Of a stretch of 51,986 nt of DNA, positions 400 through 23,325 are shown in pieces. Every line of letters begins with the position of its first letter. Within the stretch, counting starts at the first letter, position 1. Source of the DNA: a virus (Duplodnaviria; Caudoviricetes); IMG/VR virus record IMGVR_UViG_3300047409_000500, positions 1 to 51,986 of that record, one strand, 5' to 3'. The notes beneath the pieces were generated by a model that saw nothing but the letters and a program-made list of their open reading frames with translations, did not search any database and was not told where the DNA came from. The translations under genes were made by a program, and so were the position numbers.

Positions 400-747
400 T
401 TACTTGCCCCCCGCGATCTTGTACGTGCGCACGCCTTCAACGCTGGTCGATTCGATTGTGTGGGTCTTGCCCAGGATGCTCATGAATCCCCGCACCGTGT
501 GACGCTGCCATCCGAATCGCGTCATGAGGTCGTCTAGGGCGATTCCCTTTTTCAGTAGTTCGATCGCCTCGCCCTTTTTCGTGGTTCGGGGCGTGGGGGC
601 GGTCGGTGCGGGGGCGGCCTTGGCGGCCTTGGCGGGGGCGGCCTTCGTGGGGGCGGCCTTCGTGGGGGCGGCCTTGGCGGCCTTACCCTTGGGGGCGGCC
701 TTTTTCGTGGCGGCCTTCGGGGCGGTGTTCTTTTTCGTCGATTTCAT
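400..747 (-). CDS. DUF3489 domain protein with Lys/Ala/Pro-rich (histone H1-like) N-terminus
   Basis: C-terminus IELLKKGIALDDLMTRFGWQRHTVRGFMS fits the DUF3489 GWQxHTVRG motif; KAAP(T) repeats; start set at ATG 747. Confidence 0.8.
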   Translation of the reverse strand: MKSTKKNTAPKAATKKAAPKGKAAKAAPTKAAPTKAAPAKAAKAAPAPTAPTPRTTKKGEAIELLKKGIALDDLMTRFGWQRHTVRGFMSILGKTHTIESTSVEGVRTYKIAGGK

Positions 748-14934: not shown

Positions 14935-15122
14935 CGCATCCCCCCAGTGAAGAGCGTTGTGCCCTCTGGGAAGGTAGGCAGCACGCCCGGCTCGTTGGGA
15001 TCCAGCAGCGGGCACCCGCAGGGGCAGGCGACCTTGATCACCCGGATTTTGTTCTTCTCCCCGTCAGCCCAGATCGGGTAGGCGATCCAGCCGTCGTCCT
15101 GGCAAACGCTACAGAGGATCAT
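14931..15122 (-). CDS. small Zn-binding protein
   Basis: CSVC...CPCG; GGAGG RBS. Confidence 0.5.
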   Translation of the reverse strand: MILCSVCQDDGWIAYPIWADGEKNKIRVIKVACPCGCPLLDPNEPGVLPTFPEGTTLFTGGMR

Positions 15123-15393
15123 AGCCGCCTCCGAACGCTTCCTCGGCAATGAGATCGCGCGCCCCGAGCTTCGCCTGCCCTGCGGGGTTATTGAGCGGGG
15201 TCTGGATCTCGGTATGCGGGTTCAGCCGGATCACCGCGTCCCAGAAGGCCCGCGCGGCTTCGTCGACCGTGAAGGCGGGGTTAACCTCGACCCGCCCGTC
15301 AAATCGAATGGTGACAATCGGGTCGCCGGAGGCCGCGCAAAGCGCCATGGACCCCGGGCCGTGGGGAAGGGCAATACGGAGGATATCCGTCAT
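15109..15393 (-). CDS. hypothetical protein
   Basis: ORF heading the leftward operon. Confidence 0.55.
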   Translation of the reverse strand: MTDILRIALPHGPGSMALCAASGDPIVTIRFDGRVEVNPAFTVDEAARAFWDAVIRLNPHTEIQTPLNNPAGQAKLGARDLIAEEAFGGGYDPL

Positions 15394-15399
15394 CGCGCC

Positions 15400-15605
15400 C
15401 CCCCGAATCCGTTGTACAAACTTGTACGACGGGTGGGTGATGTATGCCTTTTATGCCATTCTAACCTGTTGATACTACACGTAAACCGTTGATTCGATGT
15501 TGCTTCCAACGAAGCAACTCTACGTTTTGGCACCATGTTAAGTCTCCTATTTTCAATAGCCTGAAAAATACCGTACAAAATAACCGTACGGAATGAGGTA
15601 AACTG
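15400..15605. mobile_element. putative attP region
   Basis: AT-rich, directly upstream of the integrase; two exact IHF consensus sites (15462-15474 and 15482-15494, minus strand); ACCGTAC direct repeats near 15570-15590; inverted repeats. Confidence 0.6.
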
Positions 15606-15610
15606 GGGTC

Positions 15611-16873
15611 ATGAAACAAACCCGTTTGACCCGCCGTAAAGATGCGAACTACCTTTCGGCCTATCGCCGCCATGCCGACGGCTGCACCGAAACCAATGAT
15701 TTGAATTGCAGTTGCCCCCTTTGGGTTCAGGGCCGCCTCGCCGGGAAATACGTCCGCGAAAGCCTGAACACTCGATCCTATCCCATGGCGCAACAGCAGA
15801 TTAAAGACAAGCTGAACCCGCCCGGTCCCGGCGGTCCCGGCGGCGGCCCGCGCCCCGTGGAAATTACCAGCGGGGCCGTTACCCTGGAGGCCGCCGAAGC
15901 CGCCTTCCTGAAATACAAGGCTGACAAGTCCGCCAGCACCATCAAAGAATACAGCTACACGGTGAAGCACTTCCGGCGCTTCGCCGAGGCGCACGGTGTG
16001 ACCGATGTGCGCGCCGTGGCCCCGCCCTTGATCCAGCAGTATTTCCTGGAGTACGGCAACGCCTGGGGGCAGCGCACCAAAATTACCCGCGCTACCTACC
16101 TTCGCATCTGGTGCAAATTCTGGTGTGAGATGGATTGGATTACGGTTTCCCCGGCGGACAAGAAGCTCTTCAGCTTCGCCCGCCCCACGGTCCACGCCCG
16201 CGAACCCTTCAGCATTGACGAAATTAAGAAGATCATGGAGGCCGTCGAGCTTGTGCCCGAGAGTCTTCACCAGGGGCGTGGCGATTGGCGCGGCGAAACC
16301 ATGCCTCACAACCGGGACCGCACCCGCGCCCTGGTGCTGCTGCTGCTCTATAGCGGGATGCGAATTTCCGACGCCGCATTCCTGGAACGCGCCTCGATCA
16401 GCCGCGCGGGCATTCTCGATTACGTGGTGATCAAAACCCGCCGCCAGATTGGCCTGCCCATTCAACTCCACGCGGACGCCATCGCGGCGCTGGCGAAACT
16501 GCCCGGCACGGGTGATTTCTTTTTCCTGCCGCCGGGCGAGTACCGCGCGGCGCTTGACGCCCGCCACAAGGGCCAGCGCTTCGAGGCCAAGCTGCCCGCG
16601 GGATTTATGCGGCAGTCGGTAGCCACCACCGCAGCGCTTATCGAGCGCGTCCTGGAATTGGCGGGGCTGCCGGGGCGGTGTCACCGCTTCCGCGATACCT
16701 TCGCGGTCAACATGCTGGTCGGCGGCGCGGATATTTATACCGTGTCTCAGGCCCTCGGCCACGCCGATGTGAAAATTACGAGTCGCCATTATCTGAATTT
16801 GATTCCCGGCTACCGTGAACGCATGAGCCAATCCACGCGGGTTCTAAATTATCAGTTACCCAAGGCGGGGTAA
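15611..16873 (+). CDS. int: tyrosine integrase
   Basis: LLYSGMRISD (R), HRFRDTFA (HxxR), LGHADVKITSRHY (H, Y). Confidence 0.92.
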   Translation: MKQTRLTRRKDANYLSAYRRHADGCTETNDLNCSCPLWVQGRLAGKYVRESLNTRSYPMAQQQIKDKLNPPGPGGPGGGPRPVEITSGAVTLEAAEAAFLKYKADKSASTIKEYSYTVKHFRRFAEAHGVTDVRAVAPPLIQQYFLEYGNAWGQRTKITRATYLRIWCKFWCEMDWITVSPADKKLFSFARPTVHAREPFSIDEIKKIMEAVELVPESLHQGRGDWRGETMPHNRDRTRALVLLLLYSGMRISDAAFLERASISRAGILDYVVIKTRRQIGLPIQLHADAIAALAKLPGTGDFFFLPPGEYRAALDARHKGQRFEAKLPAGFMRQSVATTAALIERVLELAGLPGRCHRFRDTFAVNMLVGGADIYTVSQALGHADVKITSRHYLNLIPGYRERMSQSTRVLNYQLPKAG

Positions 16874-16888
16874 AGTAGGATCTTTCCG

Positions 16889-16919
16889 AAGGGGCGGCCT
16901 CCGGGTCGCCCCTTTTTTT
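16889..16919 (+). terminator. intrinsic terminator, possibly bidirectional
   Basis: AAGGGGCGGCC-TCCG-GGTCGCCCC followed by T7. Confidence 0.8.
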
Positions 16920-16920
16920 A

Positions 16921-17014
16921 ATCCTTGCGTCGTCCAGCCAGACCGAATCGTGCCAAACCATGCCACACCACACTAAGCCCAATCTAGCCTTGCCAAGTCC
17001 TACCGTGACCCGCC
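16921..17014 (-). ncRNA. stand-alone GG(Y)NN pentamer unit (array C), candidate guide RNA
   Basis: Minus strand ggcaa ggcta gattg ggctt agtgt ggtgt ggcat ggttt ggcac gattc ggtct, then an A-run and a hairpin. Confidence 0.6.
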
Positions 17015-17128
17015 TTTTTCCGTTTATGGGGGCCGCCATAGGCCCGCCGGGGGCGTAGGGGGGCGACGGTTCCCCCCTGCCACCCACGGAGGCCGCCACG
17101 GGGCGGAAACGGGCCGCCATGGGGCAAT

Positions 17129-17383
17129 TTATCGCCCCGTGCGGCGGTACGCATTCTGTTGATAAACCCGCCGCGCCACCGATTCAGGAATGCGCAGGGA
17201 CACATAGGCCCGCTTGCGATTCTTCGTCAGTTTGCCGACCCCGAATTTGATTACGCCCGGTTCGTTGGCAAACCACTTGCGCAGCATTCGGGTGGACATA
17301 TGCCACGCTTCGGCCAGCTGCGCAATCGTGTAATGTTGCTCCAGAAAATCGGGGCGGTCGGTTTCCATTGGTTCCGCCATCAT
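17129..17383 (-). CDS. excisionase-like HTH protein
   Basis: HYTIAQLAEAWHMSTRMLRKWF...LRIPESVARRVY; next to the integrase. Confidence 0.7.
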   Translation of the reverse strand: MMAEPMETDRPDFLEQHYTIAQLAEAWHMSTRMLRKWFANEPGVIKFGVGKLTKNRKRAYVSLRIPESVARRVYQQNAYRRTGR

Positions 17384-17646
17384 GATTGGTATCTCCTCCT
17401 TGCCTCGCCATCGGGATATTCCTGCAGCGTCACCCCGGCCCGGGCGAGGTCGTCTTCCAGCTGCGCTAGATTCTTCGGGAAGGTTTCGTTGTGATCGTGA
17501 TGCAGCACCCAACACAGGACGTCCAGGTTGTGCATCATCGTCGCCTGCGTGTTGGGATCCACGGTCTGCCCCGTGACGGGATCGAGCAGCACTAGGGACA
17601 ACAGATCGTGCGCCCGTTGGATCTCGGCCTCGGTGCGTATCGTCAT
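17380..17646 (-). CDS. hypothetical protein
   Basis: ATGA overlaps. Confidence 0.6.
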   Translation of the reverse strand: MTIRTEAEIQRAHDLLSLVLLDPVTGQTVDPNTQATMMHNLDVLCWVLHHDHNETFPKNLAQLEDDLARAGVTLQEYPDGEARRRYQS

Positions 17647-17762
17647 CGCTGCCCCCACCAGGGCTGCGCGTGGCGCTGGTCGTCGCGGCGGCGGCGCGAA
17701 GGCCGCCGGGCGAAGAAGACCAACACCAGGAAACTTCCGATTACAATCGCCGGCAGTAACAT
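17643..17762 (-). CDS. small membrane peptide
   Basis: TGATG overlap, AAGGAG RBS, one hydrophobic helix followed by basic residues. Confidence 0.5.
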   Translation of the reverse strand: MLLPAIVIGSFLVLVFFARRPSRRRRDDQRHAQPWWGQR

Positions 17763-17938
17763 CAGTCCCACTCCTTCGTTAAACGTGCCCGCCATTCGGT
17801 GAGCAGTAGATCGGCAGCGTTCGCGGCCATCGCCACGGCCTCCTCGACCGTGGCCTGTGTTTCCGTCGCCAGGATCGCGCCGAGGGCCGTCACAGCGGCG
17901 CGTTCCCAAAAGTCACGCTCGGGATCCTTCTTATTCAT
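17762..17938 (-). CDS. small hypothetical phage protein
   Basis: MNKKDPERDFWERAAVTAL...AADLLL; ATG directly follows array B. Confidence 0.6.
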   Translation of the reverse strand: MNKKDPERDFWERAAVTALGAILATETQATVEEAVAMAANAADLLLTEWRARLTKEWD

Positions 17939-18758
17939 AAGCCTTGCCTCTGCCCGCCATAACCCGCCCAACCCATCCTGCCCGGCCTCACCGATTCACG
18001 CCTCGCCTTACATGGCCGACCCCGACCTCGCCTGCCCGGCCAATCCCGGCCAATCCCGGCCACGCCTAAACATGCCTCGCCTGCCGCGCCTCGCCGCCCC
18101 AGGCCCGACCTTTGCTCTACCTGCCAAACCCCGCCTGCCTCGCCATACCCACCCCGATCCGACCTTGCAATATCGCGCCAAACCTGATCACGCCGCGCCT
18201 GCCTTGCCAGCCCCCGCCTAACCTCGCCGATCCGCACCTAAGCAGTCCTAGCCTGCCGCCCTCCACCGGATCGCGCCGGGCCTACCATGCCCAACCTTGC
18301 ACCGCCTGCCCAACCGCGCCATCCCCGGACTCGCCAATCTCCAACGCTCCATCCCACACCCCGCCATACGATGCCAGCCCAACCCTTCCGGGCCAGCCCC
18401 GCCGAGTCGCTCCTAATCCCACCGGGCCGACCGTACCGGGCCTGCCAATCCGCGCCCGTTCTCCCCGTTCCAAGTCGCGCCATCCCAACCCTTACCGAGC
18501 CTGCCTCGCCGTACCCGGCCCGGCCCGTCCAACCGTCTCCCGACCCAACCTCGCCTGCTATGCCCCGCCGTCCCGGATCGGACCCGTACAAGCCGTGACT
18601 CATCCAGCCCGACCGACCCACGCCGTGCCTGCCGTGCCGCGCCTTGCCTACGCTGGCCGTGCCATGCCGTAGCCCCCCCGTACCACGCCTGCCAATCCCC
18701 GCCAGTCCTTGCCTGGGCCGACCGCACCTAATCTCGCCGTACCAGGGCCAGCCATGCC
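17939..18758 (-). repeat. array B: ~820 nt GG(Y)NN pentamer array punctuated by GGCA-GG(C/T), candidate multi-guide ncRNA
   Basis: 5-nt periodicity read directly; plus-strand CCTGC delimiters at 18688, 18628, 18554, 18500, 18441, 18305, 18252, 18198, 18134, 18080, 18031, 17977. Confidence 0.85.
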
Positions 18759-18764
18759 AGAGCT

Positions 18765-19247
18765 TTACGGCACCGCATCGTCGCCGCTCAAATCGGGCGG
18801 CGGCGGCCGGTGCCCATAATTTCGCGCGGCTCTTTCGATTGCGGCGAACACGCCAGCCAACTCTGAAAGCTGGAAGTACTTCACCTTTAGGCGATTCAGT
18901 TCATCCAGTGCATCGGTCAGCATTTGCGCGCGTTCGGATGGGGCCGCCAGCACTTGCGCCATAACGCGATACCCGCCCCCGTCAAGCTGCCGATCCGGTG
19001 TCAGGCTGATGAACGCTCTTACTTGGTAGTGGGGTTCATCGTGCGGAAGTGTCTCCACGGTGACGCGAATTAATTGGCGGGCCTGTTGCAGCCGCCACTG
19101 GTGGGCGGCCAGCCCATCGTCCCACTGGAAGTAACCGTGGAGAGGCGAGTCGGGGTGACTCGCCTCCGCAATTACATCAGCCGGACGCAGCAGCCCGTAC
19201 ATCGCTTGAATGCGATATAGCTCCTGTACCACGTCGATTCTTGGCAT
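18765..19247 (-). CDS. conserved phage protein, partner of the RAMP-like gene
   Basis: LRPADVIAEASHPDSPLHGYFQWDDGLAAHQWRLQQARQLI motif; starts 6 nt after the upstream gene. Confidence 0.8.
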   Translation of the reverse strand: MPRIDVVQELYRIQAMYGLLRPADVIAEASHPDSPLHGYFQWDDGLAAHQWRLQQARQLIRVTVETLPHDEPHYQVRAFISLTPDRQLDGGGYRVMAQVLAAPSERAQMLTDALDELNRLKVKYFQLSELAGVFAAIERAARNYGHRPPPPDLSGDDAVP

Positions 19248-19253
19248 TTTGTT

Positions 19254-19991
19254 TTACCCCAGTGCAACACGATCTATCAGTTTCGTTGCCACGGCATTGT
19301 TGAAGGATTCGTTGCCGTTGGTCTTTTCGATTTCAAACAGTCCCCAGCCCATTCCGGCTGAGTGCTTACTGTCGGGACGCCCCTCGCAGATACCAACCTG
19401 CTGGCCCACCCGCGCCAGCAAGTTAGTCACGTCCTCGAGGGTGAATTGATCGGCATCCCACCGGATGCGCGCGACCGCCGTCCAGTTGTGATAGGCCGCG
19501 CGCACGGTGACATACGGCTGCCCGGTTTCGACACGCGCCATATCCGCCTGCTTGACGGGAGTCGCGTCGCAAATTCGGATCAGCGGGATCTGTGGTTCCT
19601 CGGCATCGACGCCGTCCTTCTCGACGAAGACGGAGAGCTTGGCGAGGACCATTTTGAAGTCCACCAAGCGGCACGCTGAAATCAAGGCTTTCCGAAGCGA
19701 CCCCGCGTGAAAGCCATCCCACCCTTCGCGGCTGATGTATCGCGCCTCTTTGAAAGTCTGGTCCGTGTCCTTCGGTTCCCGATTCTTCTTACTCGACGCT
19801 GCCTTGCCCGTTTCCATCTTTTCTTGCATCTGGTTCTTGAGTTTGGCGCTGAAGCGATGAATTACCAGCGGGCAATCCTCCATGCCGATCAGCTTGAAAG
19901 ATGCATGTTGAAAGTTCACCGGACGGATGTTAATTGTCTTGGATACGGAAGTCTTCGTACCCGCTTCGTTTGCGTTTTTTTGAGTTGCCAT
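19254..19991 (-). CDS. Cas7/RAMP-like protein (candidate Vipr-like effector)
   Basis: PLVIH, GFHAGSLRKALISAC and the C-terminal G-rich loop GICEGRPDSKHSAGMGWGLFEI mirror RAMP motifs; AGGAGG RBS. Confidence 0.7.
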   Translation of the reverse strand: MATQKNANEAGTKTSVSKTINIRPVNFQHASFKLIGMEDCPLVIHRFSAKLKNQMQEKMETGKAASSKKNREPKDTDQTFKEARYISREGWDGFHAGSLRKALISACRLVDFKMVLAKLSVFVEKDGVDAEEPQIPLIRICDATPVKQADMARVETGQPYVTVRAAYHNWTAVARIRWDADQFTLEDVTNLLARVGQQVGICEGRPDSKHSAGMGWGLFEIEKTNGNESFNNAVATKLIDRVALG

Positions 19992-20050
19992 AGCAACCCT
20001 CCTAGATTGAAATTTCTTTCGTTTTTGCCGGGTCGAAAGATAGCCCCGGT

Positions 20051-20590
20051 TTGTTTAGCCAAGCAATGCCGAGTCCCGCCATGTCATGCCTCGCCGTTCC
20101 CAACCTTGCCTGCCATACCTCGCCCAATCGCTACATGCCTAACTGCTACATCCCAGGCCGCCCGAAACGAGACGCACCAAGCCTGCGGTTCCCTGCCCAA
20201 TCTTTCCGACTCGCCCATTCCATAACGCGCCCCGCCCCGCCGTGCCTGCCGGGCCAGCCCAGGCCAATCCCGACCTTGCCCCATCAGTCCTTCCATGCCG
20301 ACTCGGACCAAACCTGCCAGCCCGCGCCTCGCCCCATCGCGCCGCGCCTCAACTTGCCGTCTCGCCCCAAGCCCCGCCGACCCTTGCCGTGCCAAGCCTG
20401 CGAGTCCGATCCCTGCCGCGCCATCGCTTTCCAGCCGACATCGCGCCGAATCGCGCCCTGCCTGCAACGCCGAACCTCAACCAGCCCGGCCCCCAACACA
20501 ACGTGCGGCACCACGCCGAACCAATCCCCGCCTGCCACGCCACGCCCCGACGTGCCCCGCCTATCCTCGCCCCAACTCGCCGTGCCCATC
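20051..20590 (-). repeat. array A: ~540 nt GG(Y)NN pentamer array punctuated by NGCA-GG(C/T), candidate multi-guide ncRNA
   Basis: 5-nt periodicity; delimiters at 20531, 20461, 20397, 20313, 20245, 20182, 20109; hairpin at 20028-20049 follows. Confidence 0.85.
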
Positions 20591-20594
20591 TCAA

Positions 20595-20975
20595 CTACTG
20601 CTTCGTGCCTTCCGAATCGCCGGGCGCTCCGAAGTCAAGCCCCTGTTGCATCTCCTCGGCCGTCATGGCGACCTCTCGAACGTCCTCCCCGGAATCCGCG
20701 CGGCGGATGGTCTTCATGCCCGCCCGGGGCACACCGTAATAGGCGATGCATTGGACCTCGCGCATTTCGCTGCGGTCCTTGATCTTCCCGGCCAGGGTGA
20801 AGACCCGCCCGTTGGCGCGCTTCAAGTCCGCCGAGATCGCGCTGGTGGCTTCCTTCTTGCGTGCTTCGATTTCGCGCACGTCGTCGGCGGCGCGCGCCAA
20901 GGCATCACCGAGTTCCAGCAACTCGGCCCTGGTGAAGGTGTACTTTAATTCTTCGATTACCAGCTTCTCAGCCAT
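20595..20975 (-). CDS. conserved phage hypothetical protein (coiled-coil)
   Basis: GAGGAG RBS; IRRADSGEDVREVAMTAEEMQQGL. Confidence 0.7.
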   Translation of the reverse strand: MAEKLVIEELKYTFTRAELLELGDALARAADDVREIEARKKEATSAISADLKRANGRVFTLAGKIKDRSEMREVQCIAYYGVPRAGMKTIRRADSGEDVREVAMTAEEMQQGLDFGAPGDSEGTKQ

Positions 20976-21122
20976 CTACATCTCCTCTTCCGCGCCGCAG
21001 TCCAAACATCGATAACCGACCCAACGACGGCGCTCTTCGGTCCCATCAGGATGGGTAACTCCGGTGCCTGATTCACCGGACTCCTCGCGCAAATTCCAGG
21101 AACCGCACACGGAGCACACCAT
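20976..21122 (-). CDS. 48-aa Zn-ribbon protein
   Basis: Read by hand: MVCSVCGS...YRCLDCGAEEEM; fills the gap exactly. Confidence 0.6.
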   Translation of the reverse strand: MVCSVCGSWNLREESGESGTGVTHPDGTEERRRWVGYRCLDCGAEEEM

Positions 21123-21124
21123 CA

Positions 21125-22111
21125 CTATTTCCCCGTCGTCTGCGTCGGCGGTCCCGGGGCCGGGCTCTCCGGTTCCGCCTGGAGAAAACTTTCCTGGGCG
21201 AGAATCTTGTCGCGCACCGACCGCCCGCGCGGCGGCGCGGAATCCTCGGTGGGCGGAGCGTCGATGGCCCCCTGCAAATCCGCCGGCAGCATCGCGGGCG
21301 GCATGGATTCCATGGGGATCATCTCCAGCGCTTCTTCGCGGGACACCGCGCCGCGCAGCACGTGGGGCGCGTGGAATTTCTTCACCCGGCCCACCGTGCG
21401 CCAGTAGTACATGTCACGGCCCCAGGATTTGAAATTCCATTTTTCCGAGAGCGGGATCTGCTTGCCCTTCTCCCAAATCATCGCGGTGTCGGCATCGAAC
21501 TGCGTGAAGCTCACCGAGATGGCTTTGCCGCTGCGGTCGAGGATCGGATTGTAGCGCTGCTGGCTGGCGCTCCACTTCTTGATCCACAGCACGCAACCCA
21601 CGCACTTGCGATGCTTCCGGCCCTTATGGTCGACTTCATCCTCCAGCCATTCGATGTCCCACTCGTACCCGGCCTGCTGCAGCTTGGCAGCAATAATCTC
21701 GTTCTCGATGGCGGGCCGCCCGTTGGCGAAATAGAGGTAGCGCATCGAGTCAGCGGCGTTCAATCCCCAGTTACGGCCTAAATTGATCTTGACCATGGCG
21801 GTCGCAATCGCCTGATCGGCGGTGGCCGCCTTGAGATCGTCAAACTGGCCGCTAAGGGCGAACTCGCGCGCCAGCGCCCGGTCCTGGGCGAAGGTTTGCC
21901 GGGCCACCTCGGCGTCGACCAGCGCGCTGATCCACGCTTCGCGCTTCACGTTGTCGGGCATTTGCAGAAGGTGCTCGATGCTCACGCGCGAGGGCCGCCC
22001 GGTCGAGTCGGCCTGGGCGGGCTGCATGGATGGCGCCTGCGCGCTCAATTGCATCCCGGCGGCCGGGGGCGGTTCGGGCGCAGCGGTAGTGTTGCCTTCG
22101 GTTGGTTCCAT
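21125..22111 (-). CDS. RecT-like single-strand annealing protein (putative)
   Basis: Follows the YqaJ gene; LYFANGRPAI...WNFKSWGRDMYYWR...APHVLRG pattern. Confidence 0.6.
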   Translation of the reverse strand: MEPTEGNTTAAPEPPPAAGMQLSAQAPSMQPAQADSTGRPSRVSIEHLLQMPDNVKREAWISALVDAEVARQTFAQDRALAREFALSGQFDDLKAATADQAIATAMVKINLGRNWGLNAADSMRYLYFANGRPAIENEIIAAKLQQAGYEWDIEWLEDEVDHKGRKHRKCVGCVLWIKKWSASQQRYNPILDRSGKAISVSFTQFDADTAMIWEKGKQIPLSEKWNFKSWGRDMYYWRTVGRVKKFHAPHVLRGAVSREEALEMIPMESMPPAMLPADLQGAIDAPPTEDSAPPRGRSVRDKILAQESFLQAEPESPAPGPPTQTTGK

Positions 22112-22210
22112 AACTTGGATCTCCTGTACGGTTCGGTTAACCCGGAACCTTTTGTGCCGTCGTTTGGTTCCGGGTACCGCGAGCCATGACGACAGACGGC
22201 ATCGGCATCG

Positions 22211-23179
22211 TTAGGCGGCTTCCTCGCCGCGCATCGCATCGTGCTCGAAGCGGATCTTGCGGATGCCGGGCTTCGGGCGGGTATAAAACTCCATCACGCT
22301 TTGGCGGGCCTCTTCGGTCTTGAAGTGGTTCTGCAGGAGCCCGCGGGCCATCGCTTCCCAATCCACCTCGACGGAATCCTTGGTGCGCCTCCAGGTGAAT
22401 TTGCCCTCGGGCCAGACGAGCCCTTCCTTGTCGGCGATGGCGGCCTTGATCAAATTCTCGAGCAGCGCCCGGCGTTCCTTGACCCCGGCTTCCTCGAACC
22501 GTACCTGCGCGTAATCGGTCAGCAGGTTGATCTCTTCCGGGGTGGCTTGGCGCAGATCGGGCCGCTTGTGATGCGGGAAAGTCGTCTTCAGCCAGTAGGC
22601 GGCGGCCCCGCTGCCGTCGATGGGCGGGCGCTCGTCGCGCACGATAAACCGCTGGTGCCATTCCCACACCCGCGTCAGCATCGCCTGCTCGGCGGTCGGG
22701 TCGAGGCGCTCCACCGCGAAGATGCGCAGCTGGTCGCCGATCATGGCGGCGATGTCCCAGACCGGGTAATTGGTGGCCGCCATGTAGTAGTACGCCTGCA
22801 GCTGGATGTACTCGGGGATTTCACCGGGGCCGTCGCCCCAGTTGCGGCGCTGGTCCCAGGCGACCAGCTTGGCGTCCACGCCGCGCTTCTCGTTGCGCAC
22901 GAGCCCGTCCGGGGTGTACACCATCCAGGGGCGCTCCGGGTCGGTCAGCGTCCTATCGAAGTACTCGACATCGCGCTTCGTGGTGAAGGCGTAGAGCTTC
23001 AGGATGGCTTCCTCGAAAAACTTTCCTGCCATCATGCGGGCCGAGGGTTCCAGGTGCTCTGTCTCCCGGCATTTCTTCCGCGCCCACAGCCCGAAGCTAT
23101 CGAGGTAGGGATGACACCCGAAGATGGCCCCTACCTCGCTCCCGCCAATCCCGGTTCGCCGCGCTTCCGCATCGATCAT
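22211..23179 (-). CDS. YqaJ/lambda-exonuclease family recombinase
   Basis: RRTGIGGSEVGAI, TPDG, DAK, IPEYIQLQAYYYM motifs. Confidence 0.85.
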   Translation of the reverse strand: MIDAEARRTGIGGSEVGAIFGCHPYLDSFGLWARKKCRETEHLEPSARMMAGKFFEEAILKLYAFTTKRDVEYFDRTLTDPERPWMVYTPDGLVRNEKRGVDAKLVAWDQRRNWGDGPGEIPEYIQLQAYYYMAATNYPVWDIAAMIGDQLRIFAVERLDPTAEQAMLTRVWEWHQRFIVRDERPPIDGSGAAAYWLKTTFPHHKRPDLRQATPEEINLLTDYAQVRFEEAGVKERRALLENLIKAAIADKEGLVWPEGKFTWRRTKDSVEVDWEAMARGLLQNHFKTEEARQSVMEFYTRPKPGIRKIRFEHDAMRGEEAA

Positions 23180-23325
23180 CGCCGTAACCTCTCCCATTCC
23201 AGGCGCTGCACATAGAGCGCGGCGCACGCCGCGCACAGAAAATACCAATCGAGAAACCGGATCCCGGCCTGCTGGCGGCAGCGGTCGCAGCGGGCTACCT
23301 TGCTCTCCACCTGGGGCTTACCCAT
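23176..23325 (-). CDS. small Zn-finger protein
   Basis: CDRC...CAAC; GGAGG RBS. Confidence 0.5.
   Translation of the reverse strand: MGKPQVESKVARCDRCRQQAGIRFLDWYFLCAACAALYVQRLEWERLRR

What the first reader, a model, noticed from the sequence alone, without database searches (positions are those of the whole stretch)
17939..18758. Array B has a second-order period: units of 5n+4 nt separated by GGCA-GGY
Plus-strand CCTGC delimiters fall at 18688, 18628, 18554, 18500, 18441, 18305, 18252, 18198, 18134, 18080, 18031 and 17977. The spacings are 60, 74, 54, 59, 136, 53, 54, 64, 54, 49 and 54. Eight of eleven equal n pentamers plus one 4-mer (GGCA), so a constant phase break divides the array into about 13 units of ~9-14 pentamers. 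That is what a processing or assembly boundary between guides would look like. The array fills the space from just after the upstream stop codon to the next ATG.
Basis: seen in the sequence. Interest (0 to 1): 0.85.

Follow-up and report, generated by a model that had tools for sequence, protein, structure and literature searches.

The report
Phage VIPR guide-RNA array, staggered units
The five-base repeat tract is a guide-RNA array of a phage VIPR system, a recently described CRISPR-like system that silences rival phages, and its regular one-base register breaks mark the borders between guides.

Summary
All 12 listed CCTGC sites and their spacings are present, with one extra site at 18120. 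On the gene (minus) strand the tract is a run of GGYNN pentamers. Almost every register break is a 4-nt step, usually GGCA before GGC: 16 four-steps against 1 six-step in array B, and 10 against 1 in array A.

This matches the "staggered vrRNA arrays with 1-nt overlaps" of VIPR systems (bioRxiv 10.64898/2026.04.26.720920). The 245-aa gene between the two arrays is a Vipr homologue: its profile hits PDB 36pp "SUSP1 Vipr protein" at E=1.3e-12, and its model resembles Csm3/Cmr4. A search with the DNA motif alone found at least 119 IMG/VR contigs. Of the 72 with arrays, 57 carry a homologue of this gene or of the neighbouring 160-aa gene, and all 50 arrays next to a vipr homologue lie on its strand.

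Related Mycobacterium phages differ by whole units cut exactly at GGCA|GGC, and by changes at NN positions only.

No RNA data were available, and no target was found for this phage's own guides. Verdict: a real new member of a known, very recent kind.

The parts
17939..18764 (-). Array B: staggered vrRNA array of GGYNN pentamers, with 16 four-nt register steps (mostly GGCA before GGC)
18690..18758 (-). unit B1: 13 pentamers plus GGCA
18630..18689 (-). unit B2: 60 nt, 10 pentamers with one internal 6-nt step, ends in GGCA
18556..18629 (-). unit B3: 14 pentamers plus AGCA (74 nt)
18502..18555 (-). unit B4: 10 pentamers plus GGCA (54 nt)
18443..18501 (-). unit B5: 11 pentamers plus GGCA (59 nt)
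18376..18442 (-). three short segments (2, 6 and 3 pentamers) ending in GGTC, GGCT and GGCT; degenerate or atypical boundaries
18307..18375 (-). unit B7: 13 pentamers plus GGCA (69 nt)
18254..18306 (-). 53-nt stretch with an internal GGTA step (4 + 5 pentamers), ends in GGCA
18200..18253 (-). unit B9: 10 pentamers plus GGCA (54 nt)
18136..18199 (-). unit B10: 12 pentamers plus GGCA (64 nt)
18082..18135 (-). unit B11: 10 pentamers plus GGCA (54 nt); holds the extra in-register GGCAG at 18120-18125
18033..18081 (-). unit B12: 9 pentamers plus GGCA (49 nt); holds a 10-nt internal triplication
17979..18032 (-). unit B13: 10 pentamers plus GGCA (54 nt)
17939..17978 (-). terminal unit of 8 pentamers with no closing GGCA; abuts the ATG of the next gene
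18765..19247 (-). 160-aa conserved partner gene (vap-like accessory; phrog_15946): weakly winged-helix-like N-terminal half plus a helical hairpin
19254..19991 (-). vipr: 245-aa RAMP-fold protein, homologue of SUSP1 Vipr (phrog_4652, no Pfam)
20055..20596 (-). Array A: second staggered vrRNA array, upstream of vipr; 99 five-steps, 10 four-steps, 1 six-step; 8 units of 7 or more pentamers
20595..20975 (-). 126-aa upstream gene (phrog_12688); not conserved next to arrays elsewhere, so context only
17762..17938 (-). 58-aa downstream gene; no family hit and no homologue in the other loci, so context only

Best explanation
Arrays B (17939-18764) and A (20055-20596) are the guide-RNA (vrRNA) arrays of a phage-borne VIPR system. 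Its effector gene, vipr (19254-19991), and a conserved 160-aa accessory gene (18765-19247) lie between them, all on the minus strand of the early-left operon of a temperate phage.

Shown here: the GGYNN code, the adjacent Vipr homologue, the conserved module, the -1 register steps, and whole-unit turnover in related cultured phages.

Inferred by homology with the SUSP1 and P. fulva systems: the operon transcript is coated by Vipr protomers, one per pentamer, with GGY clamped between neighbouring protomers and NN exposed. Each filament reads double-stranded DNA by the 'NN, skip one' rule, where the skipped base is the codon wobble position. It then silences genes of competing phages.

My inference for the second-order period: at each GGCA|GGC junction only one base separates two GGY motifs, so a filament cannot continue in register. 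Each unit of 5n+4 nt (n mostly 8-12) is therefore a separate guide. The junction is where filaments end and where the RNA is cut or trimmed. No separate 3' handle or tail is present, unlike type II VIPR.
For: 1. Effector. The profile of 48 homologues (A1) matches PDB 36pp_D 'SUSP1 Vipr protein' at E=1.3e-12, over 173 of 199 profile positions. The AF2 model has pLDDT 82.6. Its best Foldseek matches are Csm3/Cmr4/Cas7-type RAMPs (21 matches at E<=1e-3, best 6e-5). A conserved C-terminal glycine-rich loop is present.

2. Code. Pentamer composition in the window is G 95%, G 83%, Y 75%, then two variable positions.

3. Association found from the DNA motif alone. The motif scan returned 119 IMG/VR loci. 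Of these, 72 have arrays. Of the 72, 45 have a p245 homologue, 49 a p160 homologue and 57 at least one. All 50 arrays next to a vipr homologue lie on its coding strand.

4. Register breaks. In the window there are 26 four-steps against 2 six-steps. In the other loci there are 490 against 18. The 4-mer is GGCA in 394 of 463 cases, with A at 94% (partly biased, because the search motif held GGCAGGC). Unbiased sets found by protein homology show the same pattern: Cy-LDV1 has 8 four-steps and 0 six-steps, and Donkeykong has 7 and 2.

5. Unit size. There are mostly 8-13 steps between consecutive four-steps, within the published 9-16 repeats per vrRNA.

6. Whole-unit turnover. Donkeykong carries two extra units (59 + 54 nt) compared with Brocalys, LastJedi, Clifton, Pippy and Zizzle. 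Mattes carries one extra unit (59 nt) compared with ByChance. All break exactly at GGCA|GGC. All 4 of the 4 variable columns in homologous units fall at NN positions.

7. Targeting rule in this clade. I searched 260 guides against 2.2 Mb of held sequence. The 1-nt skip gave 18/18, 19/20 and 18/20 matches, all in frame with the skipped base at the wobble position of real ORFs (an AAA_24 gene, a DUF669 gene and a 469-aa ORF). Skip 0 gave no match at >=0.9 and skip 2 gave one. NN composition correlates best with sense codon positions 1-2 (r=0.58 in the family and 0.66 in the window; other frames in the family <=0.25).

8. Literature. Staggered, 1-nt overlapping vrRNA arrays are described in the legend of fig. 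S18.
Against: - No RNA evidence. No listed sequencing run is RNA, so transcript ends at GGCA|GG are untested. The preprint's text says only the hammerhead-interspersed and single-vrRNA architectures were confirmed by sRNA-seq.
- No target was found for this phage's own guides. The best 1-nt-skip matches in the window and loci are 71-83%. Six exact-pattern scans of IMG/VR gave nothing or chance-like cores: 23/32 in two homologous contigs and 19/26 in one. Two metagenome scans gave nothing.
- The family-level target signal is small. Shuffled-NN controls gave 0-2 hits at >=0.9 per run (mean 0.5; maximum 0.95) against 3 observed. The count at >=0.85 (17) is matched or nearly matched by two of ten controls (17 and 16).
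- In the window, 10 of 30 segments are short (2-6 pentamers) or end in non-GGCA 4-mers, so part of the arrays may be decayed or my parse may over-split them.
- Unit turnover was seen in phages whose Vipr is only 27% identical to this one. No close relative of the window with a differing array was available.
- The 160-aa partner has no significant structural match.
Confidence: 0.85

Rival explanations
1. It is a VIPR array, but the 4-nt steps are not functional guide boundaries. They are scars of how units are duplicated or inserted (slippage or recombination junctions), and the RNA is used as longer filaments or cut elsewhere.
For: No RNA ends are known. Some 4-nt steps are not GGCA and bound very short segments. 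An in-register GGCAG also occurs inside a unit at 18120.
Against: The junction is far more conserved than an ordinary pentamer: A is 94% and the preceding C is 97%, against 69% C in ordinary pentamers. The direction is almost always -1 (490 against 18 in other loci). Unit lengths fall in the published guide range. Units are gained and lost as cassettes at the junction. The published legend calls these the boundaries of individual vrRNAs.
Confidence: 0.08
2. The arrays are decaying remnants or decoys that no longer guide anything. They would be kept only as spacer DNA in the operon, or as a sponge for another phage's Vipr.
For: No targets were found for the window's guides. There are several degenerate pentamers and short segments. 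Decoy or solo vrRNAs are reported for satellites (passages seen).
Against: An intact vipr with a strong RBS and an intact partner gene lie between the arrays. GG is kept in 83-95% of 212 pentamers. Missing exact matches are expected, because the search could only find perfect 9-10-dinucleotide cores in collections that may lack the soil competitors.
Confidence: 0.05
3. It is not a guide array at all. It would be a DNA- or RNA-level G-rich element: a G-quadruplex or R-loop former, a Chi-like decoy for the neighbouring RecE/RecT functions, a C-rich antisense Rho-loading site, or a sponge for a ring-shaped RNA-binding protein of the TRAP or CsrA kind.
For: There is strong GC skew (-0.32 to -0.46). 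Recombination genes lie upstream. The roughly 54-nt units resemble 11 x 5 nt (my first idea, from recalled knowledge of TRAP).
Against: None of these predicts a conserved GGY with two free positions, the constant -1 junction, variable unit length (n of 7 to 16), or the near-obligate same-strand linkage to a Vipr homologue. RecE/RecT homologues are not linked to arrays elsewhere: 1 weak hit in 119 loci.
Confidence: 0.02

Closest known systems
Staggered vrRNA arrays of VIPR systems (bioRxiv 10.64898/2026.04.26.720920, fig. S18; legend and text read, figure not seen)
   Same: GGY/NN pentamer guides placed head to tail, with successive vrRNAs overlapping by 1 nt. This is exactly a 5n+4 spacing. 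The arrays sit next to a vipr gene in a phage.
   Different: Nothing that I could test differs. This report adds the junction consensus (GGCA before GGC), the 27:1 excess of -1 over +1 steps, the unit-length distribution, and cassette-like turnover in cultured phages.
Type II VIPR (Escherichia phage SUSP1, Pseudomonas fulva prophage)
   Same: A homologous Vipr effector (profile E=1.3e-12 to PDB 36pp), the GGY/NN code, arrays on both sides of the vipr and accessory genes, a phage-borne locus, and an accessory protein predicted to bind DNA.
   Different: In type II, each vrRNA ends in a conserved 3' tail of about 40 nt with a pseudoknot. Here the units abut with no tail and only a 4-nt junction. 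The Vipr is distant and longer (245 aa against 202 in the PDB chain). No relation was tested between the 160-aa partner and vap1.
CRISPR arrays with Class 1 (Cas7/Csm3/Cmr4) backbone filaments
   Same: A RAMP-fold protein coats a guide with a fixed nucleotide period, and many guides are encoded in one array beside the effector gene.
   Different: There is no repeat-spacer structure, no Cas6-type hairpin repeat and no cas1/cas2. The period is 5 nt, not 6. Pairing is noncontiguous, and unit borders are a register shift rather than a repeat.

Membership tests
VIPR system | Vipr effector: a small RAMP-fold protein (RRM core, thumb, glycine-rich loop) encoded next to the array | tested here: met
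   Profile A1 against PDB 36pp 'SUSP1 Vipr protein', E=1.3e-12. AF2 model pLDDT 82.6. Best Foldseek matches are Csm3/Cmr4/Cas7. A conserved G-rich C-terminal loop is present.
VIPR system | vrRNA made of tandem GGY/NN (YNNGG) pentamers, 9-16 per guide | tested here: met
   Pentamer logo G95 G83 Y75 N N over 212 pentamers. There are 20 units of 7-16 pentamers.
VIPR system | Arrays in the intergenic regions flanking vipr, on its strand | tested here: met
   In the window both arrays are on the minus strand, either side of vipr and p160. Elsewhere, 50 of 50 arrays lie on the strand of the vipr homologue.
VIPR system | A vipr-accessory (vap) gene in the operon | tested here: inconclusive
   The 160-aa gene is the conserved neighbour (49 of 72 array loci). 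Its fold is only weakly winged-helix-like (Z<=6).
VIPR system | Array transcribed and processed into short RNAs that bind Vipr | not testable with these tools
   No RNA run was listed. All laid runs are DNA contigs.
VIPR system | Targets follow the 1-nt-skip (NNx) rule, with the skipped base at the codon wobble position | tested here: inconclusive
   Window guides: no target found. Same clade: matches of 18/18, 19/20 and 18/20, all in frame at wobble, against shuffled controls with 0-2 hits at >=0.9. NN composition fits sense codon positions 1-2.
Staggered vrRNA array (architecture) | Successive vrRNAs overlap by 1 nt, so unit length is 5n+4 | tested here: met
   26 four-steps against 2 six-steps in the window. 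8 of 11 delimiter spacings are 4 mod 5, and the rest are explained by extra steps.
Type II VIPR vrRNA | A conserved 3' tail of about 40 nt (pseudoknot) after each repeat tract | tested here: not met
   Units follow one another directly, and no non-pentamer stretch of about 40 nt lies between them. No Rfam family hit.
CRISPR array | Direct repeats of about 25-40 nt alternating with spacers, with cas genes nearby | tested here: not met
   Tandem-repeat search finds only short periods of 5-10 nt within the array. No PADLOC or NCBIfam hit for the neighbouring genes.

The most novel reading that the evidence does not exclude
In this large, tail-less clade of VIPR systems the guide border may be nothing more than a one-base register shift. 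The Vipr filament itself would act as the ruler: it cannot step over GGCA|GGC, so guide length and processing sites are set by filament phasing, without a handle, hairpin, ribozyme or dedicated nuclease. Units would then behave as exchangeable cassettes.

A further unexcluded twist is that guides are mostly sense-strand copies of codon positions 1-2. NN composition gives r=0.58 for sense against 0.25 for antisense, and 3 of 3 best targets are sense. This could mean a strand-biased way of acquiring or selecting guides.
Probability: 0.3. Interest if true: 0.7.

Novelty: new member of a known kind. Interest (0 to 1): 0.45.

Why it matters
VIPR is a very recently described RNA-guided DNA-silencing system, proposed to predate CRISPR. 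Its staggered array form is so far mentioned only in a supplementary figure and, by the preprint's wording, has not been confirmed by RNA sequencing.

This locus, the at least 72 IMG/VR loci like it, and above all the cultured Mycobacterium smegmatis, Gordonia and cyanobacterial phages that carry the same architecture give a defined junction motif (GGCA|GGC) and tractable phages in which to test how tail-less guides are delimited and matured. In the mycobacteriophages the array is partly annotated as a protein gene.

It also shows that arrays of this kind can be recognised from raw sequence alone.

Tried and rejected
Ideas held before the literature search and then dropped: a sponge RNA for a TRAP- or CsrA-like ring protein, a C-rich antisense Rho-loading site, a G-quadruplex or R-loop element, Chi-like decoys for the adjacent RecE/RecT genes, and a hidden coding repeat (unit lengths are not multiples of 3). 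None explains the Vipr linkage.

Searches that gave nothing useful:
- Rfam at gathering threshold: no family in the window. tRNA scan: none.
- Promoter and terminator consensus scan of 17500-21300: 0 and 0.
- blastn of 15001-23000 against phages: one 116-nt match inside vipr of Cyanophage Cy-LDV1.
- The search for related loci with the 160-aa protein in viral contigs: none, although tblastn later found 53 homologues in the motif-derived loci.
- Pfam, NCBIfam and PADLOC: nothing for the vipr or the 160-aa gene.
- Atlas search for the 160-aa protein: only unnamed viral clusters.
- Genome contigs relatives of Vipr lie in MAGs of six different phyla at 45-69% identity, so no host could be named.

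RNA evidence: no RNA holder listed. Laid DNA contigs of four soil-metagenome runs gave only short pieces at 90-99% identity and no unit-level indel.

Unit sharing between the 72 array loci: 0 pairs share a unit at >=90% identity, so gain and loss could not be tested among them.

Target search for the window's guides:
- Held sequence only gave background matches.
- Exact NNx core patterns in IMG/VR: 0 hits. One search gave 2 homologous AT-rich contigs with a 20/20 core but 23/32 overall. One search gave 1 contig at 19/26. I judged all of these to be chance.
- Metagenome scans: 0 hits.

Structure of the 160-aa protein: no Foldseek match at E<=1e-3. VIA-wide gave Z<=6.0, below the tool's stated noise level.

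Not seen: supplementary files and figures of the preprints. These include type assignments, the fig. S18 image and data S3/S4. They may already list this clade, its vap gene or its junction motif. In the main text of the first preprint, the words Mycobacter-, Actinobacter-, Actinomycet-, Gordonia, cyanophage and soil do not occur.
Full report
**What is in the sequence**

The window is a complete IMG/VR virus record of 51,986 bases, with completeness estimated at 97%. It is a temperate phage. It has a tyrosine integrase at 15611-16873 (+) and a leftward operon with a RecE-like exonuclease (22211-23248) and a weak RecT-like gene (21125-22111).

Two intergenic tracts in that operon are strongly G-rich on the gene (minus) strand, with GC skew of -0.32 to -0.46 on the plus strand. 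Array B is the finding, at 17939-18764. Array A is at 20055-20596.

The spacings are as stated, and 8 of 11 equal 4 mod 5. Array B begins just after the TAA stop of the upstream gene and ends at the ATG of the next gene.

**The period and its breaks**

Autocorrelation shows a period of 5. Its peak slides by one base about every 50 nt.

I parsed each array into GGY-led steps by dynamic programming, with equal penalties for 4-nt and 6-nt steps:
- Array B: 152 five-steps, 16 four-steps, 1 six-step.
- Array A: 99 five-steps, 10 four-steps, 1 six-step.

The four-step is GGCA in 14 of 22 window cases that have full context, and it is followed by GG in all 22.

Array B has 12 units of 7-15 pentamers and 6 short segments. 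Array A has 8 units and 4 short segments.

**Spread of the motif**

A motif built only from the junction and its flanking GG positions matches 9 times in the window, all inside the two arrays. Many contigs have several matches spaced 34, 39, 44, 49, 54, 59 or 64 nt apart.

With my detector, 72 of the 119 loci hold arrays of at least 100 nt. These contain 4848 five-steps, 490 four-steps, 18 six-steps, 4 three-steps and 2 seven-steps. There are mostly 8-13 steps between consecutive four-steps.

The four-mer is GGCA in 394 of 463 cases. Its A is 94% conserved, and the C before it is 97% conserved, against 69% C in ordinary pentamers. This set is biased, because each locus was found with a GGCAGGC-containing motif.

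**What it is**

A full-text search for 'pentanucleotide repeat', 'prophage' and 'intergenic' led to bioRxiv 10.64898/2026.04.26.720920. I read its abstract, Results, Discussion, part 1 of the Methods, Methods sections 26 and 27, and passages that include the supplementary figure legends. I did not see its figures or supplementary files.

The preprint describes VIPR systems. A small RAMP-fold protein, Vipr, works with vrRNAs made of 9-16 YNNGG repeats, and usually with one accessory vap gene. The systems are mostly found in phages and prophages. The NN dinucleotides pair with double-stranded DNA, skipping one target base per repeat, and the skipped base is usually the codon wobble position.

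Besides the tailed type II vrRNAs, the preprint names 'staggered arrays with overlapping vrRNAs'. The text says that only the other two architectures were confirmed by sRNA-seq.

I saw three further preprints as search listings and passages only:
- 10.64898/2026.04.26.720927: one protomer per repeat, GGY clamped by two neighbouring protomers, filaments of 11-12 subunits.
- 10.64898/2026.10.15.759431.
- 10.64898/2026.10.21.760802: 99 period-5 clusters recovered together with Vipr-like folds.

**Membership tests done here**

*The 245-aa protein (19254-19991).*
- It has 3807 database homologues at E<=1e-5. None of the 120 listed has a Pfam domain or a name other than 'hypothetical protein'.
- A profile of 48 homologues hits PDB 36pp 'SUSP1 Vipr protein' at E=1.3e-12, and nothing else below E=0.7.
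- Its AF2 model (pLDDT 82.6) is most like Csm3/Cmr4/Cas7 subunits.

*Linkage in the motif-derived loci (119 in all).*
- 49 encode a homologue of this protein, 53 encode a homologue of the 160-aa neighbour, and 40 encode both.
- Of the 72 loci with arrays, 57 have at least one of the two.
- All 50 arrays beside a vipr homologue are on its coding strand, directly adjacent to one of the two genes.
- The 47 loci without a detected array have 4 homologues of each gene. They are mostly chance motif matches or contig ends.

*The 160-aa protein.* It models well (pLDDT 89). It has no significant structural match: the N-terminal half weakly resembles winged-helix domains at Z<=6, below the tool's noise level. 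I call it vap-like on position and conservation only.

*Tail.* There is no tail of about 40 nt between units, so the arrays are not of the type II kind.

No close relative of this phage with a different array was available:
- The nearest Vipr in 5.8 billion proteins is 82% identical (P0005).
- Contigs from other soil runs are short and near-identical.
- No two of the 72 loci share a unit.

A protein search of GenBank phages found 33 records: 27 Mycobacterium, 5 Gordonia and 1 cyanophage. These were found independently of the DNA motif, and they show the same architecture:
- Cy-LDV1: 8 four-steps and no six-step.
- Donkeykong: 7 four-steps and 2 six-steps.
- Gordonia phage Ecliptus: 4 four-steps and 1 six-step.

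I fetched 10 closely related Cheoctovirus phages. Their unit orders are:
- Donkeykong: u0 u1 u2 u3 u4 u5 u6.
- Brocalys, LastJedi, Clifton, Pippy, Zizzle: u0 u1 u2 u5 u6.
- Mattes: u7 u1 u8 u11 u10.
- ByChance: u7 u1 u11 u10.
- Saal has u9 in place of u11. The two differ by one whole pentamer.
- Quico (u12 u13 u14 u15 u6) shares only the terminal unit with the others.

The indels begin and end exactly at GGCA|GGC. All 4 of 4 variable columns within homologous units lie at NN positions. This was seen in systems whose Vipr is 27% identical to the window's.

**Targets**

For the window's 18 guides of 8 or more pentamers, the best 1-nt-skip matches in the window and all held loci are 15/20 to 23/32, no better than the other skip rules. 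This also means there is no self-target.

I scanned exact cores of 9-10 dinucleotides from six guides against IMG/VR, and cores from two guides against metagenome contigs. The results were nothing or chance-like cores.

At the family level, I searched 260 guides from the loci and the window against 2.2 Mb of held sequence with the arrays masked. The number of guides whose best match reached >=0.9 was 3 for skip 1 (including 18/18 and 19/20), 0 for skip 0 and 1 for skip 2.

The three skip-1 matches lie in:
- an AAA_24 gene and the adjacent DUF669 gene of one contig, hit by guides of two different phages;
- a 469-aa ORF of another contig.

All three are on the sense strand, with the skipped base at codon position 3.

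Ten controls with shuffled dinucleotide order gave 0, 0, 1, 0, 0, 0, 1, 1, 2 and 0 such hits, with a maximum of 0.95. The signal is therefore real-looking but small.

The NN dinucleotide composition correlates best with sense codon positions 1-2: r=0.58 over 2660 family dinucleotides and 0.66 over 127 window dinucleotides. The next best values are 0.25 and 0.49. This is weak but independent support for the wobble-skip reading.

**Mechanism**

*Shown here:* the code, the effector homologue, the conserved three-part module, the -1 junctions, and cassette turnover in distant relatives.

*Inferred from the published SUSP1 and P. fulva work:* one protomer per pentamer, exposed NN, NNx pairing with duplex DNA, and transcriptional silencing of rival phages.

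*My own inference:* two GGY motifs are separated by a single base at GGCA|GGC, so a filament cannot continue in register across it. Each 5n+4 unit is then a separate ribonucleoprotein, and the junction is the site of cutting or trimming. No sigma-70-like promoter or intrinsic terminator consensus was found in 17500-21300. This fits read-through from the operon but proves nothing.

**Verdict**

The element is a new member of a known, very recently described kind, and it is not categorically new.

Remaining open points:
- RNA ends at the junction.
- The targets of this phage's guides.
- The VIPR type of the locus.
- The role of the 160-aa partner.

Noticed in passing
L134 (Mycobacterium phage Donkeykong NC_051648.1) 1986-2372; also L137-L140 599-787 and L141 639-797: In cluster-F (Cheoctovirus) mycobacteriophages, the staggered GGYNN array just upstream of the vipr homologue is annotated, wholly or partly, as a 'hypothetical protein' CDS (for example gp48 of Donkeykong and gp43 of LastJedi). 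These are probably not protein genes.
   Followed up: partly
L082 1940-3561 (IMG/VR contig of 158,651 b): This is the longest array seen, about 1.6 kb with 19 motif matches, next to vipr and p160 homologues in a large phage contig.
   Followed up: no
L097 421-1754: Guides of two different VIPR phages (L052 at 18/18, L046 at 18/20) match adjacent early genes (AAA_24 ATPase and DUF669) of one contig. That contig itself carries a VIPR locus, and one of its guides matches L110 at 19/20. This is a possible network of mutual targeting.
   Followed up: partly
window 592-722: A tandem repeat with periods of 9, 15 and 54 (unit GGCGGCCTT and variants) lies near the left end of the record. It is unrelated to the pentamer arrays. 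It may be a coding repeat in one of the overlapping ORFs.
   Followed up: no
window 20976-21125 (-): A 49-aa ORF with two CxxC pairs (zinc-ribbon-like) sits between the RecT-like gene and the 126-aa gene.
   Followed up: no
window 18033-18081 (-): One unit holds an exact 2.8-copy repeat of 10 nt (two pentamers). This looks like recent internal duplication of pentamer pairs, a way in which unit length could change.
   Followed up: no
L122-L128: Vipr homologues 45-69% identical to the window's lie in MAGs assigned to Gemmatimonadaceae, Bacteroidota, Paludibacter, Anaerolineales, Deltaproteobacteria and Planctomycetota. Either the clade has a very wide host range or phage contigs have been mis-binned.
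   Followed up: no
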